A stretch of 64,000 nucleotides of DNA from NCBI RefSeq assembly GCF_009914755.1, contig NC_060926.1; one strand, written 5' to 3'. Each line of letters begins with the position of its first letter. Within the stretch, counting starts at the first letter, position 1. This document shows, piece after piece, positions 522-61,394 of the stretch. The translations under genes and the position numbers were made by a program. The notes under the pieces were generated by a model, which made no database searches, was not told the DNA's origin, and was given only the letters and a program-made list of their open reading frames with translations. The DNA is from the human T2T-CHM13v2.0 reference genome, Homo sapiens.

Positions 522-2227
522 AACAACCTAGATTCAGCCCCACTCAGGAACCCAGAGATGGGGTAGGAGTGGAGGTACTCTTTTATGCCTGTGAATGTGA
601 CCCCACCTTAGCCTGCCCAAGCTTTGAAATTGTAACATCTGGTTCCAGCCTTCCCTTTGGGATTCCTTCATGCTTCCTGGTCCCTGAGGGGTTCCTGTTT
701 TCAAAGGCAGGTGACAGAATCATCCAGGCACTGGGACTTAGCGGCCCAGGCTCTGGCCCAGCCGACCCACTGATTCCCTAGGGCCTGGATTTCTGGACCT
801 TCCTGACTTTAGATGTAAAACTGGGGAAAAGTCTAGCCTTCCTTCCAAGCTAAGGGTGAAGCCAAGGCAAGAGACAAATGTAAAAATTTCTGGGAATTCT
901 TGGAGGACAGTATTACCTTTTATCTTGTAGGATGGGAAAGCAGAAGAAGCTACTGTCAAAGGAAAAAAAAATTGTGACTTCTGACTAGGCATATAGAAAG
1001 GATTTTCCCTCTTGTTCTTCTTAGAACATCTTCAATCCATAAAAAGGGCTAGGATAAAAATGGTTTATGTTTTCTGCTGACTCTAGGGAAAATAAGGTGC
1101 TTTTTACTGAATCCGTGTATTTACTTATTAGGCACACTGAAAGGTAACTCACAGCCCAAATAGAAATCACAGGCTCTCTCTCCCCTTGATGGAGCCAAGT
1201 AAAGCTGCCCTGAGCTCAGAAACCCATAGCTAGCAAAGGGACAAACCCATAGCTAGCCAAGGGAAATCTGCTTGGGTTGGAAATTGGATTAATGACAGTT
1301 ATGACACGAGCTTGCCCCTTGCCCCCGACCCCTGTCTCTCATTCGTCCTTGAGGTTTTGCAAGTCAAGTTTCACTACAGACTGACACACATGCTCTAGAC
1401 TAACTGGAGGCTCAGGTTTGAGACAGGTCCAGATTCACACACTGGGATCCCCCATTTACACACATGTATGTCTTAGCCTGTAAAGGTTTACCGTTGAAAT
1501 GCCTGGAGAAGCTCAACTAGATTTAGATCATTGAAAGCTGTAATTTCCAAATGGATTAATAATTTATACACTGTTACTCTGGGCGTGAGGTTAGGGGTCA
1601 GTCTCCCTTTGTTATATGAGGATATTATGTGCTTTTAGGCTTTTTATGGCCTTTAATCTTATTTTCCTATCTATTAAGTAGCAGGCCCTTCACCAAGGCT
1701 GGCATTAATGACCAGATGATTAGAAAGCTGGCGTTAATTATATTCTACTGACAGAGCAGGCCCTTGCCTGCAATTGTTAGAAATGCACTTAAAACCTTTG
1801 CTTGCTGCACTGTTTGATCAAAAAGAGTAAGAGCCCTGAATTTGGTTTGCATTAAGGACCATCTAAATAAGTTAAATACAGGCACTTGAAATTGTGCAAG
1901 AATCATTTTACTGCAGCAGAGGAGCCTCAGTGGCACAGATAAAGGGAGAGCAGAGAGGACAAAAGTTATTTCCTTGGTTGAGTCCATGATGGTTTAGGAC
2001 AGCGGCAACAGCAAGTTTGGTCTTCCCAGTGATTTGTGGACCCAGGTAATAAAGAGACCATTGTATTAGGAGCCACCAGACATGTTGTGTAGCTCAGACT
2101 CTGTCACTATTGTCTTGTAAGCTGTGAAGCAAATCATAACCCTCTGGCCTTAGTTTCCTCATGTTAAAAGAAAATACTTATCCTCCCTGTGGCACAGGGT
2201 TTTGTTTAAAAGATTAGACAAGATGAT

Positions 2228-2822
2228 ACAACCATTTTGGAAATAATTTGGCAGCTTCTTATAAACATATACTTTACAGGTAAGCCAGCAATTGCACTCC
2301 TAGCTGCACCCACGAGAAATGAAAATATGTCCATACAAAGATTTATACACAAATGTTTATAGCAGCTTTATTCATAATAATCAAAAACTGAAAACAACTC
2401 AAACATCCATCAACAGGCAGATGGATAAACAAATTATGGTATGTCCATGCAACGGAATACAACTCACTGATGAAAAGGAATAAACCACAAATGCCTGCAA
2501 CGCCATGATGAATCTCAAAACATGCTGAGTGTAGAGAAGCCAGACACAAGAGTAGATACTCCTATACAATTCCACTTACATGGAAATCTAGAAAAGACAA
2601 TTCGAATATATAGTGGCAAAAAGCAGAAGAGTGGTTGCCTGGAACCAGGGTGGGAATGAAGATTAACTGCCCAGAGGCATAAAAAATGGGGTGGTGGGGG
2701 CGGTGATGGAAAAGTGCTATGCCTTCACTGTACCTTTGTCAAAACTTGTTGAACTGTATACTTCAAATGGGTGTGTGTTTTATTGAAGGTAAATTTGACC
2801 CCAATAACATTTATTTTTAAAA
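2228..2822 (+). mobile_element. Old L1M (L1MC/ME-like) 3' fragment in intron 7
   Basis: L1 3' motifs: cagcaattgcactcctag, atgtttatagcagctttattcataat, ggataaacaaattatggta, gaagccagacacaa. Confidence 0.8.
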
Positions 2823-2849
2823 ATTAAGAGCAAACAGAAAAAGCTTAGA

Positions 2850-3120
2850 CTAGGAATCTTTAATTTGAACTATAATTCTGTCTACTGTTTCCACTGAGGT
2901 GGTCTTTCAGCAAATGACTCAGTAGTTTTAAGCCTCAGTTTCTTCAGCTGTAAAGTGGGAATAACAACAGGCACCCCATGGTGTTGCCTATGAAATGCAG
3001 TGATGATGACCTAATCCTTAGTGAGCGCCCTATGTGCCAGGCACTGTGCTGAATGCTTTGCAGAAACGAATTCATCTTATCAGATAGTTCTGAACACTGC
3101 AAAGCACTATACAAATGTAA
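2850..3120 (+). mobile_element. MIR fragment(s)
   Basis: Core agcctcagtttcttcagctgtaaagtgggaataa. Confidence 0.6.
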
Positions 3121-4628
3121 GTTACAGGAATTCTTGCACTTTGCAGGTGCTTGTTAAATTGTGAAGAAGAAAGCAAAACATAAGTGTAAAGGATTACCAA
3201 ACTGCACTAGTATGAAGAGAGCCATGTTCCTCAGCTGTACAGGGCTGATGAATGGGGAGGAGGCCTGCGAGCCTACCAGGAGAACCGGGGAGACTCTCTG
3301 TCTACCGAGAGCCTGGATATCCTCCCGAGTGGCCCCTCATGAGACTATCTACCAACGTGTAACAGACTGTCTGTGACAGGCCATGGGCATAATATGTATT
3401 AGTATCTCTAAGAAAGAGGTGGCTTTTCCTATACAAAATTTGTTGGTGACAGTTGGTCAACACTTATGTACCTGATAAGCCATGTGGGTACAGTCGATCC
3501 TCAGTACAAATGGCAGTGGTATGCTGGGTAGCTAATGATGACAGTTATTACCGTTACTACTATTATTATCAATATCCTGTTTTGCAGAGGAGGAAACCAA
3601 AACCAAGAAGGATTGTTCCTTTCCCCAAATCCCAAGCTAGCAAGATTTCCCGATCCTCCCTCCATGCCCTTTCCTAACGTCTCTGTGATTTGGGAGCTTC
3701 TGAGCTGGAGTTCTGTAAATTCCCAAGGAATGGGCAGTTCAGAAAAATACCAAAAATTCTAACATTATTAGACTTTAAAGAGATTTATTGATTCCTTTTG
3801 AATGGCAGCAGATGGAACATTCTGGACTGGGGAAGGACAGTCTGTGATGTGAAACCCTTCCCCAAGGTAGACAACAAAAGCGTTTTTTAAATGAACACTT
3901 AGTAGAACAATCTAGAAGAGGAAAAACCTCATAAGTAGGAAGCCTAGCTGGGCGGTTGGGAGAAGGAGTATAAGTGATTTATTACAGCTTATGAAGAGAC
4001 TGTGTGTGGGCTGCCAGGGTCCCAGCTCTTTCTCAGCCCCAACTGAGAAAGGGTGGGGTGGTTTGCCTCTGCCTTTGCTGTGGGTCACAAACCTTCAGTG
4101 GCCCAAAAGGTGGCAAGCCTGACAGATGACCTGGAGAAATCAAGGATATCAATGTTTTAAATGCTTTTATTCATAAGCAGGGTATTGGTGGTGGGTCTGC
4201 TGAAAAAAAAAAACAAAAAAAAACAAAAAAAACTGCCCTGAGGTCAGGCTTTCTCCAGGCTGCTTAGAAGTCCCCCCACCTGGAGTGCTTGACGGGATGG
4301 CGCTCCTTACCCAGTGTGAAGGGGCTTCTTCTCATTGAACCCCATGAAGAAAGTAAGGCAGGTTCTGGACTTGGTTCTGCTTATAGCTGAGCTGGTCTGT
4401 GAGCCTGACTTGTCCAGGGATTGGTGATGGGCCACTGCAAAGCTGCATAGTGAGCGGGTCCCTCCCTCAGTAGACAGCCTTGGGCAAGTCATTTCACCTC
4501 TTCTCACCTCTTTTTCCTATATTTAAAATGAAGAGTTGGCTGAGGTGATCCCTAAGCTCCCTCCCAGGTCACTCTCCCTGGTCCTCACTGTCGTGGCGCC
4601 CTGTTCTGTCTGTTCCCCTGCAGATTAG

Positions 4629-4862
<234 letters not shown>

Positions 4863-5503
4863 TAAGCATGTGAGGGCTGGCGGGCCTTGGTGCAGGGTAT
4901 GTGGGGGTGCCCAAGCTTCCCAGACTCAGGATGACAGGCCTAGGAGATGCCAGGCCTCTCAGCGCCCTGGGCACCACCTCAGGGAGGTCTTGCAGGGCTA
5001 ACCCTAGTGACTGAGAGGACTTCCTGTGGATGTCTTGGAACAGTGGGATACTGGGTTGGGATTTTTTTTTCTGCGCTTTCCCTGGCATCTGTCATTTATG
5101 CCATGCATCTGACCCAGGTGGGGAGGCAGATAGCACACAATAGTCAATATTTTCTGAATGGGGAAAAAGGAAAGAGAATCGCTTATGCTTTTGGGAAAAA
5201 AAAAAGATGTCATGCCTTCACTCTATAGTACCTGGAAAGAAAGCTAGAGGAAGTCATTTCTAGTTGTTTCTACAGACAGAGAAAAACAAAAGCATCAGGC
5301 CTCATATATACCACCCCACTCAAGTGCAATAATATTTAATAAAACAGGATCCGAAACAGACATACATTCAGAGGATACCTCTGTTGTCACTACCTCCATG
5401 GCTCACACACTTCTATTGTATGGTTCTTTATAAGACGCCAATGCCTGGAGTCCTACCCATTTTTTGTCGGAGAGCTTAGCTATGAGGGTTTCCATGCATC
5501 TAG

Positions 5504-5932
<429 letters not shown>

Positions 5933-6871
5933 TGAGCACAAAAGAACACCACACGCTCCTGCCCTGATAAGACCATCCCATATCCGACCTCACCAAGTGC
6001 TGTACGAGGAGGGGTTAAGAGAGGACACCCCCCTGAGGGTCGATTCTCCACCATGGGTGGTGAGAGTCTGAGATGAGAGGGAGGGGAGAGGTGAGGGATC
6101 TGCTCCGAGGCCACTTGGACACTGTCAAAGAGAAGGGGCAGATTCCTACCAGGGTCTGGAAGGACAGATGGCTTGTTCAGGCAGAGGGCCAAGTTGGAGT
6201 AATGTTGGGAAGGATCATTCCAAAAACACAGAGAACATATTGAGGCCTGGGATTAAGCCCTCAAACCCACGACTTCATTAAAGTGTCTGCCTGTCCCTGG
6301 GGATGTAAGTCACTGGGGACCCCGGCAGGGTTTTCAGCCCTCGGCTGCTCCAATCCTGGAAACACCCTTGAAGCCCCATGCTCCCCAGTTCGCAACCCGC
6401 TGCCACCCTCTCCTGGCCTTGCTGTGGCTGCCGGAAGAGTGGTGCTCACCCTGGACTGTGTCAGCCCCTTTTAGATGGGTTCTACAGCGGCCACGTGAGG
6501 ATTGCAGCTAAAGAGAATCTGAAACGCAGCGGGCCCTTGGCCAGTAGGTCTCGCGGCTTGTTTTGTGGCAGTACTGAGGCAAATAGCTCAATAGCCCAAT
6601 TCTCCTCTCCCTCTCATACCTTCCTTGTCTACCCTTCCGGATCTGTTCCTCAGGGAAGAGTGGCTCCTAATATATTTAGTCTCTGAAAATTAAATGTCCC
6701 AGGAGACTGTTCCGTTTAAAGGGAGTCTCTACGTTGACTCATAGCCAGAGTCAAAGACCCATGTGTTCCAGCTGAGCCCCAGGGTGTTGGGGGGGCCTAG
6801 CCCCAGGCATGCCTTCCAGACCCTCTTAGGGCCTTCTCTGCGGTTTTTGGGCCTCCTCTGCCTTGGGGTGA

Positions 6872-56284: not shown

Positions 56285-56557
56285 TTTAAATATATTTATA
56301 TATTTAATATATAATTTATATAATATATAATATATATTATATAAATATAATATAAATATATATTATATATAATATATATAATATATAATATATATAATAT
56401 ATTATATATATTTATATTATATAAATATAATATAAATACATATATTATATATAATATATTTATATTATATATAATATAAATATATGTATTATATATAAAT
56501 ATATAATATATATAATATAAATATATATTTTTATATATATATTTATTTATATATATA
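56285..56557. repeat. AT-only low-complexity tract
   Basis: ~270 bp nearly pure A/T with recurring tatataatata units. Confidence 0.95.
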
Positions 56558-56959: not shown

Positions 56960-57555
56960 ACAGTCAAAAGACAGTTGTTTAAAAAGACTAATAAAATTGA
57001 TAAATCTTGATGAGAGTGTTCAAATAAAAAAGAAAGCTCAAATATCCATATTATGAATAAAAACAGGGGCATCACTATAGACCCAACAGACATTGATATC
57101 TCATGATATGTCATAATTATATCTTATAAGAGATATTCCGAATAACTTAAAACAAATAAATTTTAAAATTTGGATGAAATAGACAAATTTCTTGAAAAAT
57201 AAAATTCACCAAAACTGCCAAAAGAAATAGCAAATCTAAACAGTATTATAATTTTAAAAAATTTAATATATAAACCTTCCCACAAAGAAATTCTTGGCCC
57301 AGATGCTTATAAGTAAACTTTACCCAAGATTTCATGAAGATATTTTGTCAGTCTTCCATAAACTTAGGTTTAATTAAGGTATTTTGTCAGTCTTACATAA
57401 ACTTTCCATAAAACCAAAAGAGACGGCAAGCTTCAAAACTGATTTTATAAGACTGGTATTATCTTGATATCAAAACCTGACTAGTATATTTTAAGGAAGT
57501 AAAATTACAGACCAATCTTACTCAAGAACATAAATGAGAATTTCCTATACAAAGG
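56960..57555 (+). mobile_element. Old L1M ORF2 fragment
   Basis: ggcatcactatagacccaacagacatt, aaccttcccacaaagaaa, aattacagaccaatct. Confidence 0.72.
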
Positions 57556-57797
57556 AACGAATGAATGTGTACATTAATGAATGCATGGGTTTATTTCCTG
57601 GTTTTTCATAGACCTACAACAGAAATCCACTCAGCCTGACAAAGTAAGGATTTTAATACCAGTCTTGGCACATACCCTCAAGAACCCCTGGATGCTAAAA
57701 TGGCTCAAAGAGCTAACAAAGTCTGGACAAACCAACATGCCTGGTTTAATTAGTCTGTAGGAAGTCCAGATATCGGTATTTCTTAAAAGCCTTCCAG

Positions 57798-60255
57798 AGT
57801 TCCGACAGAGATCACGGTGAGACTCTGAGCTCCGCGGCTAGCTCCCCTGGGGCCCTCCAAACCCTGGGCCAACGGGTGAGTTGGGGGAGCCCCAGGACAG
57901 ACTGGGGCCTCCGCCCTGCAGATATCCCAGAGCCCTTGCTATGGCTCCCACCGGCCACACCCAGGCCTTGAAGGAGCATCGACCATATTCCTCAACCCAC
58001 CTCGGTGACCTGATGGTGGCGGCAGCCTCTCCCAGCCGACCCCGCCGACCGCTGGATCTCCAGAGGACACCCCTGCCAAGCCACCCGGATGCAGAGCCTT
58101 TGAGTGGCAGCTGCCGTGGCCGGCCGGAAGCATGGCGGCGGCAGGGAGGCCCCTAGGGTGTGGCAGGGCGGGTCTACGGAGGCCTCTTTAGGCCACAGAG
58201 CAACGTAAAGCCTAGGCCTGCAGAGACTGCTCAGTCACAGTTGAAGGAGACCTACTGAGTCCTGAGGACAACCAACAAAGGCCTTAACGGCACAGAAGGT
58301 GAGCAAAGTCCTGGAGGAGGGTGAGCAGAAGGATCAGTGGCCATCGCGGGTTGGTGTTAGTTCTACCAGACCTCTATGTCGCAAGAGAAATGGTAGGATG
58401 ACAGGCCACAGTTGGCCCGCTGGACATGCCCACCACCCTTTGGGAAGGTTTACTGGCCGTTTATAGAAAACCTGTGTGTATATAACATGAAAAAGTTGCT
58501 CTCAACTTCCCTCCAACCTTTTAAAAGAAAACATTTTCCACATCTAGGCTTTCTAGATGAGAAGAGGTTGCCGACGTATGACAGAGTTAGAAAATCACAC
58601 ATCTTGTAAATTCTCATTTGTTTAAAAAGAAATCATAGGCCGGGCGCGGTGGCTCATGCCTGTAATCCCAGCACTTTGGGAGGGCGAGGCGGGCGGATCA
58701 CGAGGTCAGATCGAAACCAGCCTGACCAACGTGGTGAAACCCCGTCTCTACTAAAAATACAAAAATTAGCCGGGAGTGGTAGCGGGCATCTGTAATCCCA
58801 CCTACTCGGGAGGCTGAGGCAGGAGAATCGCTTGAACCCAGGAGACAGAGGTAGAGGGTGCAAGTGAGCGGAGATTGCACCATTGCACTCCAGCCTGGGT
58901 GACAGAGCAAGAATCCGTCTCAAAAAAAAAATTATAAAAAATAAATGTCTTCTGGAGGTGACTTTGAAGTGGTTAGACCACCTCTGGAAGCGAAGCTTCC
59001 ACGTTTGTTCAGTGAGTTAAAGGACATAGAAAACCTGAGAAGGAAGTTCTAGGCCAGTCTGGTCATATCTGAAGAGATTTTCATGTTCTAATCTAACCTT
59101 TGTTTTGTGTACATTTTATTAATGCTCACCACTGTACATAGAGTTGACTAACGTAAAACAATCCCTTCATAAATGTCCTTTTGTTTGTTTATAGGAAGTC
59201 CTGTCTTCTGGGATTGAGTTTGGTAATCCACCCCTTGGAGCTAAACACAGTAGTATCCTTAGTCGTTGGGATGGTGGGAGAGGGAGAAGAGGAAGGATGA
59301 AGGAAAGGGCTCTTTGCTAGTATCTCCATATCTAGAAGATGGTTTAAACTCATACCCATAGCTCTATATGAGCATTTTCAGTAAAGTGCCTGTGTTTGTT
59401 GTGGACAAGTTTTATTATTTTGCAACATCTGAGCTTTATGAAAGTCCTGGAGTGACAATGTATGATAAAAAGTAGAGCTAGTGAATTAGGCAATTTATTA
59501 ATATTTTTTGTTATAACTGATAGAAAAGATGCATCTTGAACATGGAATTGTTAAGCCACGTCTGAGCAGTGTATGTCAGGACTTGTTCATTAGGTTGGCA
59601 GCAGAAGGGCAGAATGAAGTATAAAGGGAGAGATGTATGCAAATGTGTCTATGTTTACATTTTGATACTAGTCATTGATATATGTGCAACTCTTTTGGCT
59701 GTACTATAGGAATACAGTAAGTAATTTGAAGGAAACATACCTTCTTGCTAATATTTTAATGGTATAGATATGAGAAATTATCTTAGAAACATTATACATA
59801 GTGTATTCTGCTGCTTTATGTTTCATTTTAAATTGAGCATTAAGAAAACGCAGTATTTTAATCAGAACTCTGCTAATGCTTTTATGTAGAGGCATGTTGT
59901 CATTTGGGTCTTCTATGAAATTTTTGTCCTAAGAAAGGGAGGATTACATTTTTTCTAACAGATGAAGTTGCTGTAATGTGTTGCTGAGTATCAGAATACT
60001 CACATAGCTTTAAGATTTTGAATTGGTAAATATTCATGATGTGTGAAAAGGCATGATACATAACATATGATCTCAAGTCCATCAAGTTGGATGTTGTATC
60101 TACACAAACAGGACTTAGAAGGACATGTGAAACTAAATTGCTTGTGATTGTGGATGGCTTTGTTCTTTGCTTCTAGTGGTTTTCAGTTTCCTGTAATGCA
60201 CACATTAGCTTTTAAAAAGTGAAGGTTATTTTTTAAAACCTGTAAAAAAAAAAAA
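57798..60255 (+). pseudogene. Processed retrocopy of lncRNA NORAD (LINC00657), internally deleted, Alu-interrupted
   Basis: Starts agttccgacagagatc and continues through blocks recognised as NORAD (cccacctcggtgac; gcctctttaggccac; gagaaatggtaggatgacaggccac; gaggttgccgacgtatga; gagcagtgtatgtcaggacttgttcattaggttggcagcag); ends ggttattttttaaaacctgt + A12 (60244-60255); ttccag on both flanks (57792-57797, 60256-60261). Match is from memory of NORAD. Confidence 0.88.
58638..58931 (+). mobile_element. AluS inserted within the NORAD retrocopy
   Basis: Dimeric Alu; degenerate TSD aaaagaaatcata / aaaaaaaattata. Confidence 0.92.
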
Positions 60256-60294
60256 TTCCAGGTGACGCTACATCATAAGGTTGAGAGCCACTGG

Positions 60295-60565
60295 GGTAAG
60301 TTGCTGACTCTGGTATGTAGTTAGTATTTATTCTAAGTGCAATGGGAAGGCATTATAGGGGTCAAGGAGAGGCATGACATGATCTAATTTACTGTTTAAG
60401 GCTGAGGCTTTGTGGAGAGTGGACTATGGAGGGTGACAGCAGAAGCAAGGTACTGGTTAGGAGCTGACTGGGGAGAGTAAAGGGAATCAGGATATATGTC
60501 AGGCATAGGGCTGTCCAGTCATGCTGACAACAGAGGTCCTGGGAGTGAAGGACAGAGAAGAATCC
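60295..60565 (-). mobile_element. L2 fragment
   Basis: tattctaagtgcaatgggaaggcatt...tgacatgatctaattta. Confidence 0.65.
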
Positions 60566-61394
60566 CTAGAATCTGGGAATCTTTAACAGTACCAGGCATG
60601 GAGCTCCTGTAATTTCATGTGTCAGACAGTAATCTCTGCTACCCCTTCCTCTGGCAACCCCCACAGCCTCCAGCAGGGCAGGCACCTGGTAGAGGCATAT
60701 ACAGATGGCTAGAATGAAACAAACTCTCTGGCGCAATAAACCTCCAGGCTCTGTGGAAGCCCACGTCTCCTGTGTGACTCTGATAAATACCTTCCCCTCT
60801 CCGGCCTTTGTAAAACAGAAATTATATTTTCCACTGCCTGCCTTACAGACAGAGGTATTTTGAATATCCAGGACAGCAGTGCATAATGACAGTTAATAAC
60901 AGTTTTTTTTTAAGCACAACCACCTTGCAAGGTAGAGATCGTTCAAACACTCTTACAAACATCAGAGCTGAGAGATAAAGTAACTACCTGAGGCCAACGT
61001 GCTATCAGTGCTTATGTGGCTTTTTGATCCAGGCCAGTTTGACTTCAAATTCTAGATTCCTTTCACCACATGATGCTGAAATTACAACATATTAGATGAT
61101 GCACTGGCAAGATGGCAGGGAAACTATTACATTCTTTCATTGTTCCTCACACTAAGATGGGTGGGATTCTTTTGAAAAGCAAATTAGTAATGAGTGTCAA
61201 AATCCACAAAAGTGTTTCTACCCCTTGACCATATTGAATTTATTCTCAAGAGAACAATTTTGAATTATAAAAAGGTGTATACCTAGAACTTTTAGTTCTG
61301 CATCATTTGTAACAGCAATAAATTCGAAGTAACTTAAATAGGGGACTTGTTAAAAAAAAAAAACTATGGTGTCAAATCAAAGGAGTACTATACA

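What the first reader, a model, noticed from the sequence alone, without database searches (positions are those of the whole stretch)
57798..60255. Processed retrocopy of the lncRNA NORAD ~42 kb downstream of EPAS1
Seen: a non-transposon, non-coding segment with a CpG-rich 5' part, an A12 tail and a ttccag direct repeat on both flanks, splitting a MER5-like element. These are hallmarks of L1-mediated retroposition. Recognised from memory: the 5' end, internal blocks and 3' end match NORAD, the PUMILIO-decoy lncRNA. NORAD paralogues such as HCG11 are known, but lncRNA retrocopies are often unannotated as such, and this one sits in the EPAS1 downstream interval. The internal AluS implies the copy is at least as old as AluS activity (inference).
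Basis: partly seen in the sequence, partly recalled or inferred. Interest (0 to 1): 0.85.

Follow-up and report, generated by a model that had tools for sequence, protein, structure and literature searches.

The report
Old NORAD retrocopy seeding LINC02583 exon 1
This stretch is an ancient, internally deleted, reverse-transcribed copy of the NORAD long non-coding RNA, one of dozens in the human genome, whose only notable feature is that the annotated first exon of the lncRNA LINC02583 lies inside it.

Summary
Window 57798-60255 aligns colinearly to the chr20 NORAD locus. It covers NORAD nt 1-1153, interrupted by a later Alu at 58639-~58937, and then NORAD nt 4264-5339.

Homology starts at the 5' end shared by other full-length NORAD copies and stops at NORAD's cleavage site. 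No NORAD genomic flank is carried. An A-run of 12 and a TTCCAG direct repeat follow. Joining the flanks gives a 15-mer found 447 times in the genome against 5 for the control, so a dispersed repeat was split and the duplication is real.

The copy is old. Its terminal branch is 0.11 substitutions per site, against 0.034 for HCG11. It lacks the 3.1 kb holding 12 of NORAD's 15 PUMILIO sites, so it is not a decoy paralogue.

At least 56 other NORAD-like loci exist, and "NORAD pseudogenes" are in print as a class (PMC4947167, PMC6407921). The one added point is that LINC02583 exon 1 (58209-58298, hub table) and its GT donor lie inside the copy, and the donor motif is ancestral in NORAD.

Verdict: an ordinary new member of a known kind. 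Interest is low.

The parts
57792..57797 (+). 5' copy of the target-site duplication, TTCCAG
   Evidence: Identical hexamer at 60256-60261. The host-repeat consensus built from 15 genomic copies has a single TCCAG here.
57798..58638 (+). NORAD-derived block 1 (NORAD nt 1-926), GC-rich 5' part
   Evidence: blastn against the chr20 locus gives 665/929 identical. It starts at AGTTCC as 4 of 6 other copies do. GC 0.64, CpG o/e 0.47.
58209..58298 (+). Annotated exon 1 of LINC02583 (NR_103805.1), wholly inside the retrocopy, followed by a GT donor at 58299-58300
   Evidence: Hub gene table for the exon coordinates. AAG|GTGAGC in the sequence. GGTGAG conserved in NORAD and 8 of 9 family members.
58477..58484 (+). 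Retained PUMILIO response element (TGTATATA), orthologous to NORAD PRE at nt 761
   Evidence: and the alignment.
58639..58937 (+). Secondary Alu insertion with A-tail and imperfect flanking repeat (58626-58638 against 58925-58937, 10 of 13)
   Evidence: Rfam SRP/Alu-type matches below gathering score. NORAD is continuous across this site. Boundaries. Non-CpG divergence 0.084 from a consensus of 30 held Alus.
58938..59148 (+). NORAD-derived block 2 (about NORAD nt 927-1153), includes the second retained PRE at 59133-59140
   Evidence: blastn 185/249 identical, colinear with block 1.
59149..59152 (+). Junction of the 3110-nt internal deletion (4 bases, TAAC, of unassigned origin)
   Evidence: None of the 52 non-self matches spans it.
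59153..60244 (+). NORAD-derived block 3 (NORAD nt 4264-5339, to the cleavage site)
   Evidence: blastn 905/1117 identical. Ends at CCTGTA exactly as NORAD does before its unrelated downstream flank.
60244..60255 (+). A-run of 12 (poly(A) tail remnant; the first A may be templated)
60256..60261 (+). 3' copy of the target-site duplication, TTCCAG
60262..60293 (+). 3' terminal piece of the interrupted old dispersed repeat (MER5-like; name recalled). Its left part lies upstream of 57797 and is much decayed.
   Evidence: nhmmer hit 60257-60301 to a profile of 15 genomic copies (9.0 bits, E 6e-4). The hit rises to 20.6 bits and spans the junction on the rejoined flanks.

Best explanation
A full-length, polyadenylated NORAD transcript was reverse-transcribed and inserted into an old dispersed DNA-transposon remnant about 42 kb downstream of EPAS1. 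This is target-primed reverse transcription of the LINE-1 type, and I estimate it happened roughly 50-110 million years ago.

The copy has lost NORAD nt 1154-4263, either during insertion or afterwards. That segment is the repeat-unit core and holds 12 of the 15 PUMILIO sites. The copy later received an Alu and has since decayed at about the neutral rate. It is therefore a dead NORAD pseudogene as far as PUMILIO sequestration goes.

Its present-day role, if any, is structural. The GC-rich 5' part of the copy lies immediately upstream of, and contains, the annotated transcription start of LINC02583. A latent GGTGAG 5' splice site inherited from NORAD serves as the donor of LINC02583 exon 1.

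Shown: the origin, the boundaries, the order of events and the overlap with the exon. Inferred: the L1 machinery, the age in years, and that the retrocopy sequence itself is the LINC02583 promoter.
For: Homology and boundaries:
- Colinear alignment to chr20 NORAD in three blocks: 72%, 74% and 81% identity, with E down to 0.
- Homology begins at AGTTCC, the same 5' end as 4 of 6 other copies examined. One more is near-identical and one is 5'-truncated.
- Homology ends at the same CCTGTA as NORAD and as 2 of the 7 other copies shown (chr9:116.17M, chr14:46.34M). The other five diverge within the last few bases before their own A-rich tails.
- No match to NORAD's genomic flanks apart from Alu-to-Alu hits.

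Insertion signatures:
- A-run of 12 and TTCCAG on both sides.
- The rejoined-flank 15-mer occurs 447 times in the genome against 5 for the control, and the repeat consensus holds one TCCAG.
- A profile hit across the junction scores 20.6 bits, against 9.0 bits for the right flank alone.

Age and order of events:
- Comb-like maximum-likelihood tree of 12 3' ends. The chr2 terminal branch is 0.11; HCG11 is 0.034; the NORAD lineage from the same node sums to about 0.059.
- Non-CpG K2P distance to NORAD is 0.156-0.206 along the whole copy.
- Only 18 of 71 ancestral CpGs are kept, and 19 have become TG or CA.
- NORAD is continuous across the Alu site, and the Alu has its own 10-of-13 flanking repeat.

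Loss of decoy capacity and link to LINC02583:
- NORAD has 15 PREs and the copy has 2. Twelve lie in the deleted segment.
- Exon 1 of LINC02583 at 58209-58298 (hub table) is followed by AAG|GTGAGC.
- GGTGAG is present in NORAD and in 8 of 9 aligned family members.
Against: - The target-site duplication is only 6 bp, which is short for L1-type events. The nick site it implies (GCC|TTCCAG) is not the canonical TT|AAAA. A perfect TCTT|AAAA lies 7 bases upstream, which would need a later 3-base loss in the 3' copy to fit (the consensus target site is recalled).
- The left flank's membership of the host repeat is weak. There was no genome hit, no hit in 182 kb of held DNA and no separate nhmmer hit. 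The 15 profile loci were chosen by the junction motif, so 15 columns match by construction.
- nhmmer also gave a probably spurious hit in the Alu tail (window 58863-58955, E 5.6e-7).
- CpG retention (18 of 71) is about what methylated neutral decay over a 0.11 branch would give. It offers no independent sign of a protected promoter.
- No expression, chromatin or cross-species data could be consulted.
- The age in years rests on recalled substitution rates.
Confidence: 0.95

Rival explanations
1. The segment is a DNA-level (segmental) duplication of the NORAD locus or of another NORAD copy, not a retroposition event.
For: Many NORAD-like loci exist, and some could have spread by duplication. 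The copy is slightly more similar to the chr9:116.18M copy (85%) than to NORAD (81%) in raw identity.
Against: Homology stops to the base at the transcript's 5' end and at the cleavage site. It is followed by an A-run and a direct repeat. Flank searches return only the window itself or unrelated old-repeat matches. No other locus shares the deletion junction (0 of 52 non-self matches). In the tree the chr2 copy leaves the trunk on its own long branch and is not sister to chr9:116.17M.
Confidence: 0.01
2. The copy is a functional NORAD paralogue, like the expressed HCG11, that still acts as a PUMILIO decoy.
For: Two PREs remain, against 0.26 expected in shuffles; 2.6% of 2000 shuffles reach 2. 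The locus is transcribed according to the RefSeq annotation of LINC02583 (hub table).
Against: Twelve of NORAD's 15 PREs lie in the deleted segment, and one of the 3 in the retained parts is also lost. Both surviving PREs lie downstream of the exon 1 donor at 58298, so they would be intronic in NR_103805.1. Non-CpG divergence is uniform at 0.16-0.21, and the terminal branch is about twice the NORAD lineage's, so no constraint is visible. NORAD's AATAAA is changed in the copy.
Confidence: 0.02
3. The internal 3.1-kb gap was made during retroposition, by the reverse transcriptase switching template between NORAD's internal repeat units or by a deleted source RNA, rather than by a later genomic deletion. 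This rivals only one step of the main account.
For: Both breakpoints lie in copies of NORAD's internal repeat. NORAD 1203-1254 (as numbered; add 5 for the corrected numbering) matches 4240-4292 at 78%. From the sequences printed, the breakpoints are within about 30 nt of equivalent positions.
Against: The junction is not in register and carries 4 unassigned bases. The same repeats would equally favour a later genomic deletion. There is no GT-AG at the breakpoints, so it is not a spliced isoform. No other copy shares the junction, so a recurrent deleted RNA is not supported.
Confidence: 0.4

Closest known systems
NORAD (LINC00657) processed pseudogenes, including the expressed copy HCG11 on chr6
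   Same: Same parent RNA, same 5' start (AGTTC...) and same 3' end with an A-tail and flanking direct repeats. Dispersed on other chromosomes. [quoted passage not shown]
   Different: Much older than the four >90%-identical copies named by Tichon et al.: terminal branch 0.11 against 0.034 for HCG11. It lacks the 3.1-kb repeat-unit core and keeps 2 of 15 PREs. It carries a secondary Alu. It is not itself annotated as a NORAD-like lincRNA, but provides exon 1 of a spliced, otherwise unrelated lncRNA.
Retrocopies that donate promoters or first exons to new transcripts (recalled concept, e.g. 'retrotransposition as a source of new promoters'; the Carelli et al. 2016 retrocopy life-history paper was seen only in a reference list)
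   Same: The transcription start and first splice donor of an annotated gene lie in retrocopy-derived, GC-rich sequence that was downstream of the parent's own start.
   Different: Here both parent and derived gene are non-coding. Promoter activity of the copy is inferred from geometry only. CpG decay gives no sign of long-term protection.
Classical L1-mediated processed pseudogenes of mRNAs
   Same: Transcript-exact ends, a poly(A) tail, a target-site duplication, and insertion into an AT-rich old repeat.
   Different: The parent is believed to be a single-exon lncRNA (recalled), so the usual 'intron loss' criterion gives no information. The duplication is short (6 bp).

Membership tests
L1-type processed retrocopy (processed pseudogene) | Homology confined to the parent's transcribed region, from start site to cleavage site, with no parental flanks | tested here: met
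   It starts at AGTTCC (57798) and ends at CCTGTA (60244). Outside these points only Alu-to-Alu matches to the 2 kb either side of NORAD.
L1-type processed retrocopy (processed pseudogene) | 3' poly(A) tract not encoded at the parent locus | tested here: met
   A12 at 60244-60255. NORAD's genomic sequence continues TTAAGCCC after CCTGTA.
L1-type processed retrocopy (processed pseudogene) | Target-site duplication flanking the insert | tested here: met
   TTCCAG on both sides. The host-repeat consensus has this motif once, and the rejoined 15-mer is found 447 times against 5 in the control.
L1-type processed retrocopy (processed pseudogene) | Insertion at an L1 endonuclease-type site (TT|AAAA; recalled consensus) | tested here: inconclusive
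   The boundary of the 6-bp duplication is GCC|TTCCAG, which is not canonical. A perfect TCTT|AAAA sits 7 bases upstream.
L1-type processed retrocopy (processed pseudogene) | Loss of parental introns | not testable with these tools
   NORAD is colinear with its genomic locus over both retained blocks and is believed to be unspliced (recalled), so the criterion gives no information.
Functional NORAD-type PUMILIO decoy | Many UGUANAUA elements within repeated NORAD units | tested here: not met
   15 in NORAD and 2 in the copy. The deleted segment NORAD 1154-4263 holds 12.
Functional NORAD-type PUMILIO decoy | Sequence constraint relative to neutral copies | tested here: not met
   Terminal branch 0.11, against about 0.059 for the NORAD lineage from the same node and 0.085-0.13 for other old copies. 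Single-genome evidence only.
Host element: MER5-like DNA-transposon remnant (name recalled) | Both flanks align contiguously to the family consensus across the empty site | tested here: inconclusive
   The junction 15-mer recurs 447 times against 5. The right flank holds the terminal motif. The left flank beyond about 20 nt shows 36 of 63 matches to the consensus and gives no separate hit. No repeat library was available to name the family.
Alu (secondary insertion) | SRP-derived dimer with an A-tail and its own flanking repeat, absent from the parent sequence | tested here: met
   Rfam Metazoa_SRP matches to both halves, below gathering score as expected for Alu. 30 full-length Alu relatives in held DNA. 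A10 tail and a 10-of-13 flanking repeat. NORAD is continuous across the site. The subfamily (AluS) was not tested.

The most novel reading that the evidence does not exclude
The retrocopy brought with it part of NORAD's CpG-island sequence from downstream of the start site, plus a latent GGTGAG splice donor. Together these created the promoter and first exon of a new spliced lncRNA, LINC02583, inside the EPAS1 downstream interval. More generally, NORAD's 5' 600 nt may act as a portable promoter seed. Several other copies still show CpG o/e of 0.68-0.90 at 76-79% identity to NORAD.
Probability: 0.3. Interest if true: 0.35.

Novelty: new member of a known kind. Interest (0 to 1): 0.18.

Why it matters
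The main value is for annotation.
- It explains the origin of a 2.5-kb unmasked, GC-rich block downstream of EPAS1.
- It explains where the first exon and splice donor of LINC02583 come from.
- It warns that short reads, CLIP tags or probes for NORAD's first and last kilobase can cross-map here and to at least 56 other loci.
- It adds a dated, old member to the NORAD pseudogene series, which could help calibrate when NORAD became highly expressed in the germ line.

It does not point to a new mechanism. It gives no evidence of a role in EPAS1 regulation or in high-altitude adaptation.

Tried and rejected
- Rfam scan of 57000-61000. It found only Alu/SRP-type and Alu-derived miRNA-family matches, all below gathering score. 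No lncRNA family matched.
- Genome search with the left flank, 57600-57797. It found only itself.
- Genome search with the right flank. It gave 5 weak matches to an old repeat at window ~60307-60425. This is a different element, starting about 40-50 nt beyond the insertion site. The left flank does not lie next to those matches in the 5 loci, so they do not help with the empty site.
- blastn of the rejoined flanks against 182 kb of held DNA. No hit.
- CpG retention as a sign of a protected promoter. I rejected this. 18 of 71 ancestral CpGs kept is about what methylated decay over a 0.11 branch predicts.
- A spliced-isoform origin of the internal gap. I rejected this because there is no GT-AG at the breakpoints.
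- Descent from HCG11 or another copy. I rejected this because the chr2 branch leaves the trunk deeper than HCG11 and has no supported sister.
- Literature searches:
  - 'NORAD' + 'retrocop': 1 paper, irrelevant on reading the passages.
  - 'retrocopies' + 'lncRNA' + 'parental lncRNA': 0 papers.
  - 'LINC02583': 5 papers, 3 listed. One mention is in a SNP table. Two papers have no occurrence in the main text.
  - Supplements of PMC4805607: 0 occurrences of LINC00657, HCG11 or NORAD in the 3 files held.
  - So I found nothing in print on this particular copy or on its link to LINC02583 in those searches.

Full report
**Observation**

I read window 57200-60700.
- The run AGTTCC... begins at 57798.
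- An A-run of 12 lies at 60244-60255.
- TTCCAG lies directly before the first (57792-57797) and directly after the second (60256-60261).
- The first 500 bases are GC-rich: GC 0.64, 24 CpG and o/e 0.47. The flanks have o/e 0.20 and 0.10.
- An Alu sits at 58639-~58937. Rfam gives SRP-type matches to both halves, below gathering score as is usual for Alu.

**Identity**

The window's own assembly could be searched.
- The 5' part (57798-58610) matched chr20:37771042-37771932 on the minus strand at 71% identity (E 7e-117).
- The 3' part (58935-60255) matched chr20:37766602-37767677 at 81% (E 2e-296).
- Both parts also matched many other loci.

I fetched 9.5 kb around the chr20 locus (L023) and ran blastn. 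NORAD coordinates below count from the AGTTCC start, which is L023 reverse-strand position 2061. The transcript is 5339 nt long.

| Window | NORAD nt | Identity |
|---|---|---|
| 57801-58638 | 9-926 | 665/929 |
| 58924-59148 | 913-1153 | 185/249 |
| 59153-60244 | 4264-5339 | 905/1117 |

**Boundaries**

- Upstream of AGTTCC, the window and the NORAD locus are unrelated.
- Downstream of CCTGTA, NORAD continues with its genomic flank, whereas the window has the A-run.
- The only matches between the window and the 2 kb on either side of NORAD are Alu-to-Alu.
- Of 6 other copies examined at the 5' end, 4 start with the same AGTTC after unrelated sequence, 1 is nearly the same, and 1 is truncated by about 20 nt.
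- The 7 examined at the 3' end stop within a few bases of the same point, two of them (chr9:116.17M, chr14:46.34M) at CCTGTA itself, and are followed by A-rich tails. Two (chr12 and the chr6 copy at HCG11's expected place) show their own flanking repeats.

So the ends are those of the RNA, not of a DNA duplication.

**Target site**

Separate searches with each flank were of little help.
- The left flank found only itself.
- The right flank found a different old repeat that starts 40-50 nt further on.
- The rejoined flanks had no match in 182 kb of held DNA.

A 15-letter pattern spanning the rejoined site was more informative. It occurs 447 times in the genome (221 forward, 226 reverse), against 5 for the reversed control.

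I aligned 15 of those places. They define a repeat whose consensus runs through the junction with a single TCCAG and ends about 32 nt later in a terminal motif that the window's right flank keeps. Identity to the consensus is 17 of 24 consensus columns on the right and 36 of 63 on the left.

I then built a profile of the 15.
- It hits the right flank alone at 9.0 bits (E 6e-4).
- It hits the rejoined site across the junction at 20.6 bits (E 1e-8).

Three caveats apply.
- The 15 loci were picked by the junction motif, so those columns match by construction.
- The left flank beyond about 20 nt is barely recognisable.
- nhmmer also produced a probably spurious hit in the Alu tail.

The duplication of TTCCAG is therefore real, but it is short. 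Its boundary is not a canonical L1 endonuclease site, although a perfect one lies 7 bases upstream.

**Later events**

- NORAD is continuous across the Alu site, and the Alu has an A10 tail and a 10-of-13 flanking repeat. The Alu therefore came after retroposition.
The median of the 30 is 0.075.
- The gap in the copy corresponds to NORAD 1154-4263, which is 3110 nt in today's NORAD and includes an Alu that NORAD itself acquired later.
- The junction carries 4 unassigned bases and has no GT-AG.
- Both breakpoints lie in NORAD's internal repeat units, within about 30 nt of equivalent positions.
- None of the 52 non-self matches spans the junction, so the deletion is private to this copy.
- An older copy on chr14 still holds parts of the middle, so the parent RNA had that segment at the time.
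- Whether the gap arose during reverse transcription or later cannot be decided here.

**Age and parent**

I built a maximum-likelihood tree of 12 3'-end sequences, about 1.1 kb each. These were 12 of the loci returned, namely those given locus ids. The tree is comb-like, as expected for one master gene shedding copies over time.
- The chr2 copy leaves the trunk after three older copies (terminal branches 0.12-0.13).
- It leaves at about the same level as two others (0.085-0.088).
- It leaves well before the chr6 HCG11-position copy (0.034).
- Its own terminal branch is 0.11. The NORAD lineage from that node sums to about 0.059.
- It has no supported sister, so I take the NORAD lineage as the parent.

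Non-CpG K2P distances to NORAD are 0.206, 0.170 and 0.156 for the three blocks. The low raw identity of the 5' block is mainly CpG decay and indels: 18 of 71 ancestral CpGs are kept and 19 are now TG or CA.

With recalled neutral rates of 1-2.2e-9 per site per year, 0.11 corresponds to roughly 50-110 million years. This is a rough inference.

**Function**

- NORAD has 15 UGUANAUA elements and the copy has 2, at 58477 and 59133. Twelve lie in the deleted segment.
- NORAD's AATAAA is altered in the copy.
- The longest ATG-initiated frame is 71 codons.
- Nothing suggests a retained decoy role.

The hub's gene table places exon 1 of LINC02583 (NR_103805.1) at 58209-58298, wholly inside the copy.
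- The exon ends AAG|GTGAGC.
- GGTGAG at this position is present in NORAD and in 8 of 9 aligned family members, so the donor is inherited, not new.
- The 411 bases upstream of the annotated start are all retrocopy sequence, with two GC-box motifs and no TATA-like motif.

That this sequence is the promoter is inference from geometry. CpG decay gives no independent support.

**Comparison with what is known**

- Tichon et al. [quoted passage not shown] They count four human copies with >90% identity over >4 kb, HCG11 being the expressed one.
- Kopp et al. [quoted passage not shown]
- A lung-cancer survey lists HCG11 and CTA-14H9.5 as lncRNAs derived from LINC00657 pseudogenes (PMC6414417, tables read).
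- Merging the hits at 20 kb gives 57 loci besides this one. One is NORAD itself, so at least 56 are other copies. This is a lower bound, since only 40 of 66 candidates were scored.
- I found no paper on this particular copy or on its relation to LINC02583 (searches; supplement search).

**Verdict**

The finding is correct and precisely placed, but ordinary. It is an old, truncated member of a well-populated and already described pseudogene family. The modest addition is that it supplies the first exon and the splice donor of LINC02583.

Noticed in passing
window 58639-58923: The Alu embedded in the retrocopy keeps 13 of 20 consensus CpGs, although its non-CpG divergence is 0.084. That ties for the highest CpG retention among 31 Alus compared. 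In one search's table, the others with non-CpG divergence of 0.08 or more keep 3-8. This could mean low germ-line methylation next to the LINC02583 start, but the sample is small.
   Followed up: partly
L007 (G000:C7:23340987-23344826), and L003-L009 generally: Several NORAD retrocopies keep CpG-island-like 5' ends despite their divergence. The chr7:23.3M copy is 79% identical to NORAD over the first 600 nt, yet has 68 CpGs and o/e 0.90. The chr17:29.2M copy has o/e 0.71 at 76% identity. This suggests that some copies stay unmethylated and may act as promoters.
   Followed up: no
L023 (G000:C20:37764500-37774000), reverse-strand positions 5722-6010: Human NORAD itself contains an Alu within its transcribed region. 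The near-full-length chr9:116.17M retrocopy is continuous across that point. The Alu therefore entered NORAD after that copy was made.
   Followed up: partly
window 60295-60425: A second old dispersed repeat lies just downstream of the insertion site. It has 72-82% matches at 5 other genomic places. The family was not named.
   Followed up: no
window 56300-56500: A stretch with GC of about 0.01 (an almost pure A/T simple repeat) lies 1.3 kb upstream of the retrocopy.
   Followed up: no
genome-wide: Of the 57 NORAD-like loci, 19 matched only the 5' query and 28 only the 3' query. The many 5'-only loci are unexpected for L1-type copies, which are usually 5'-truncated.
   Followed up: no
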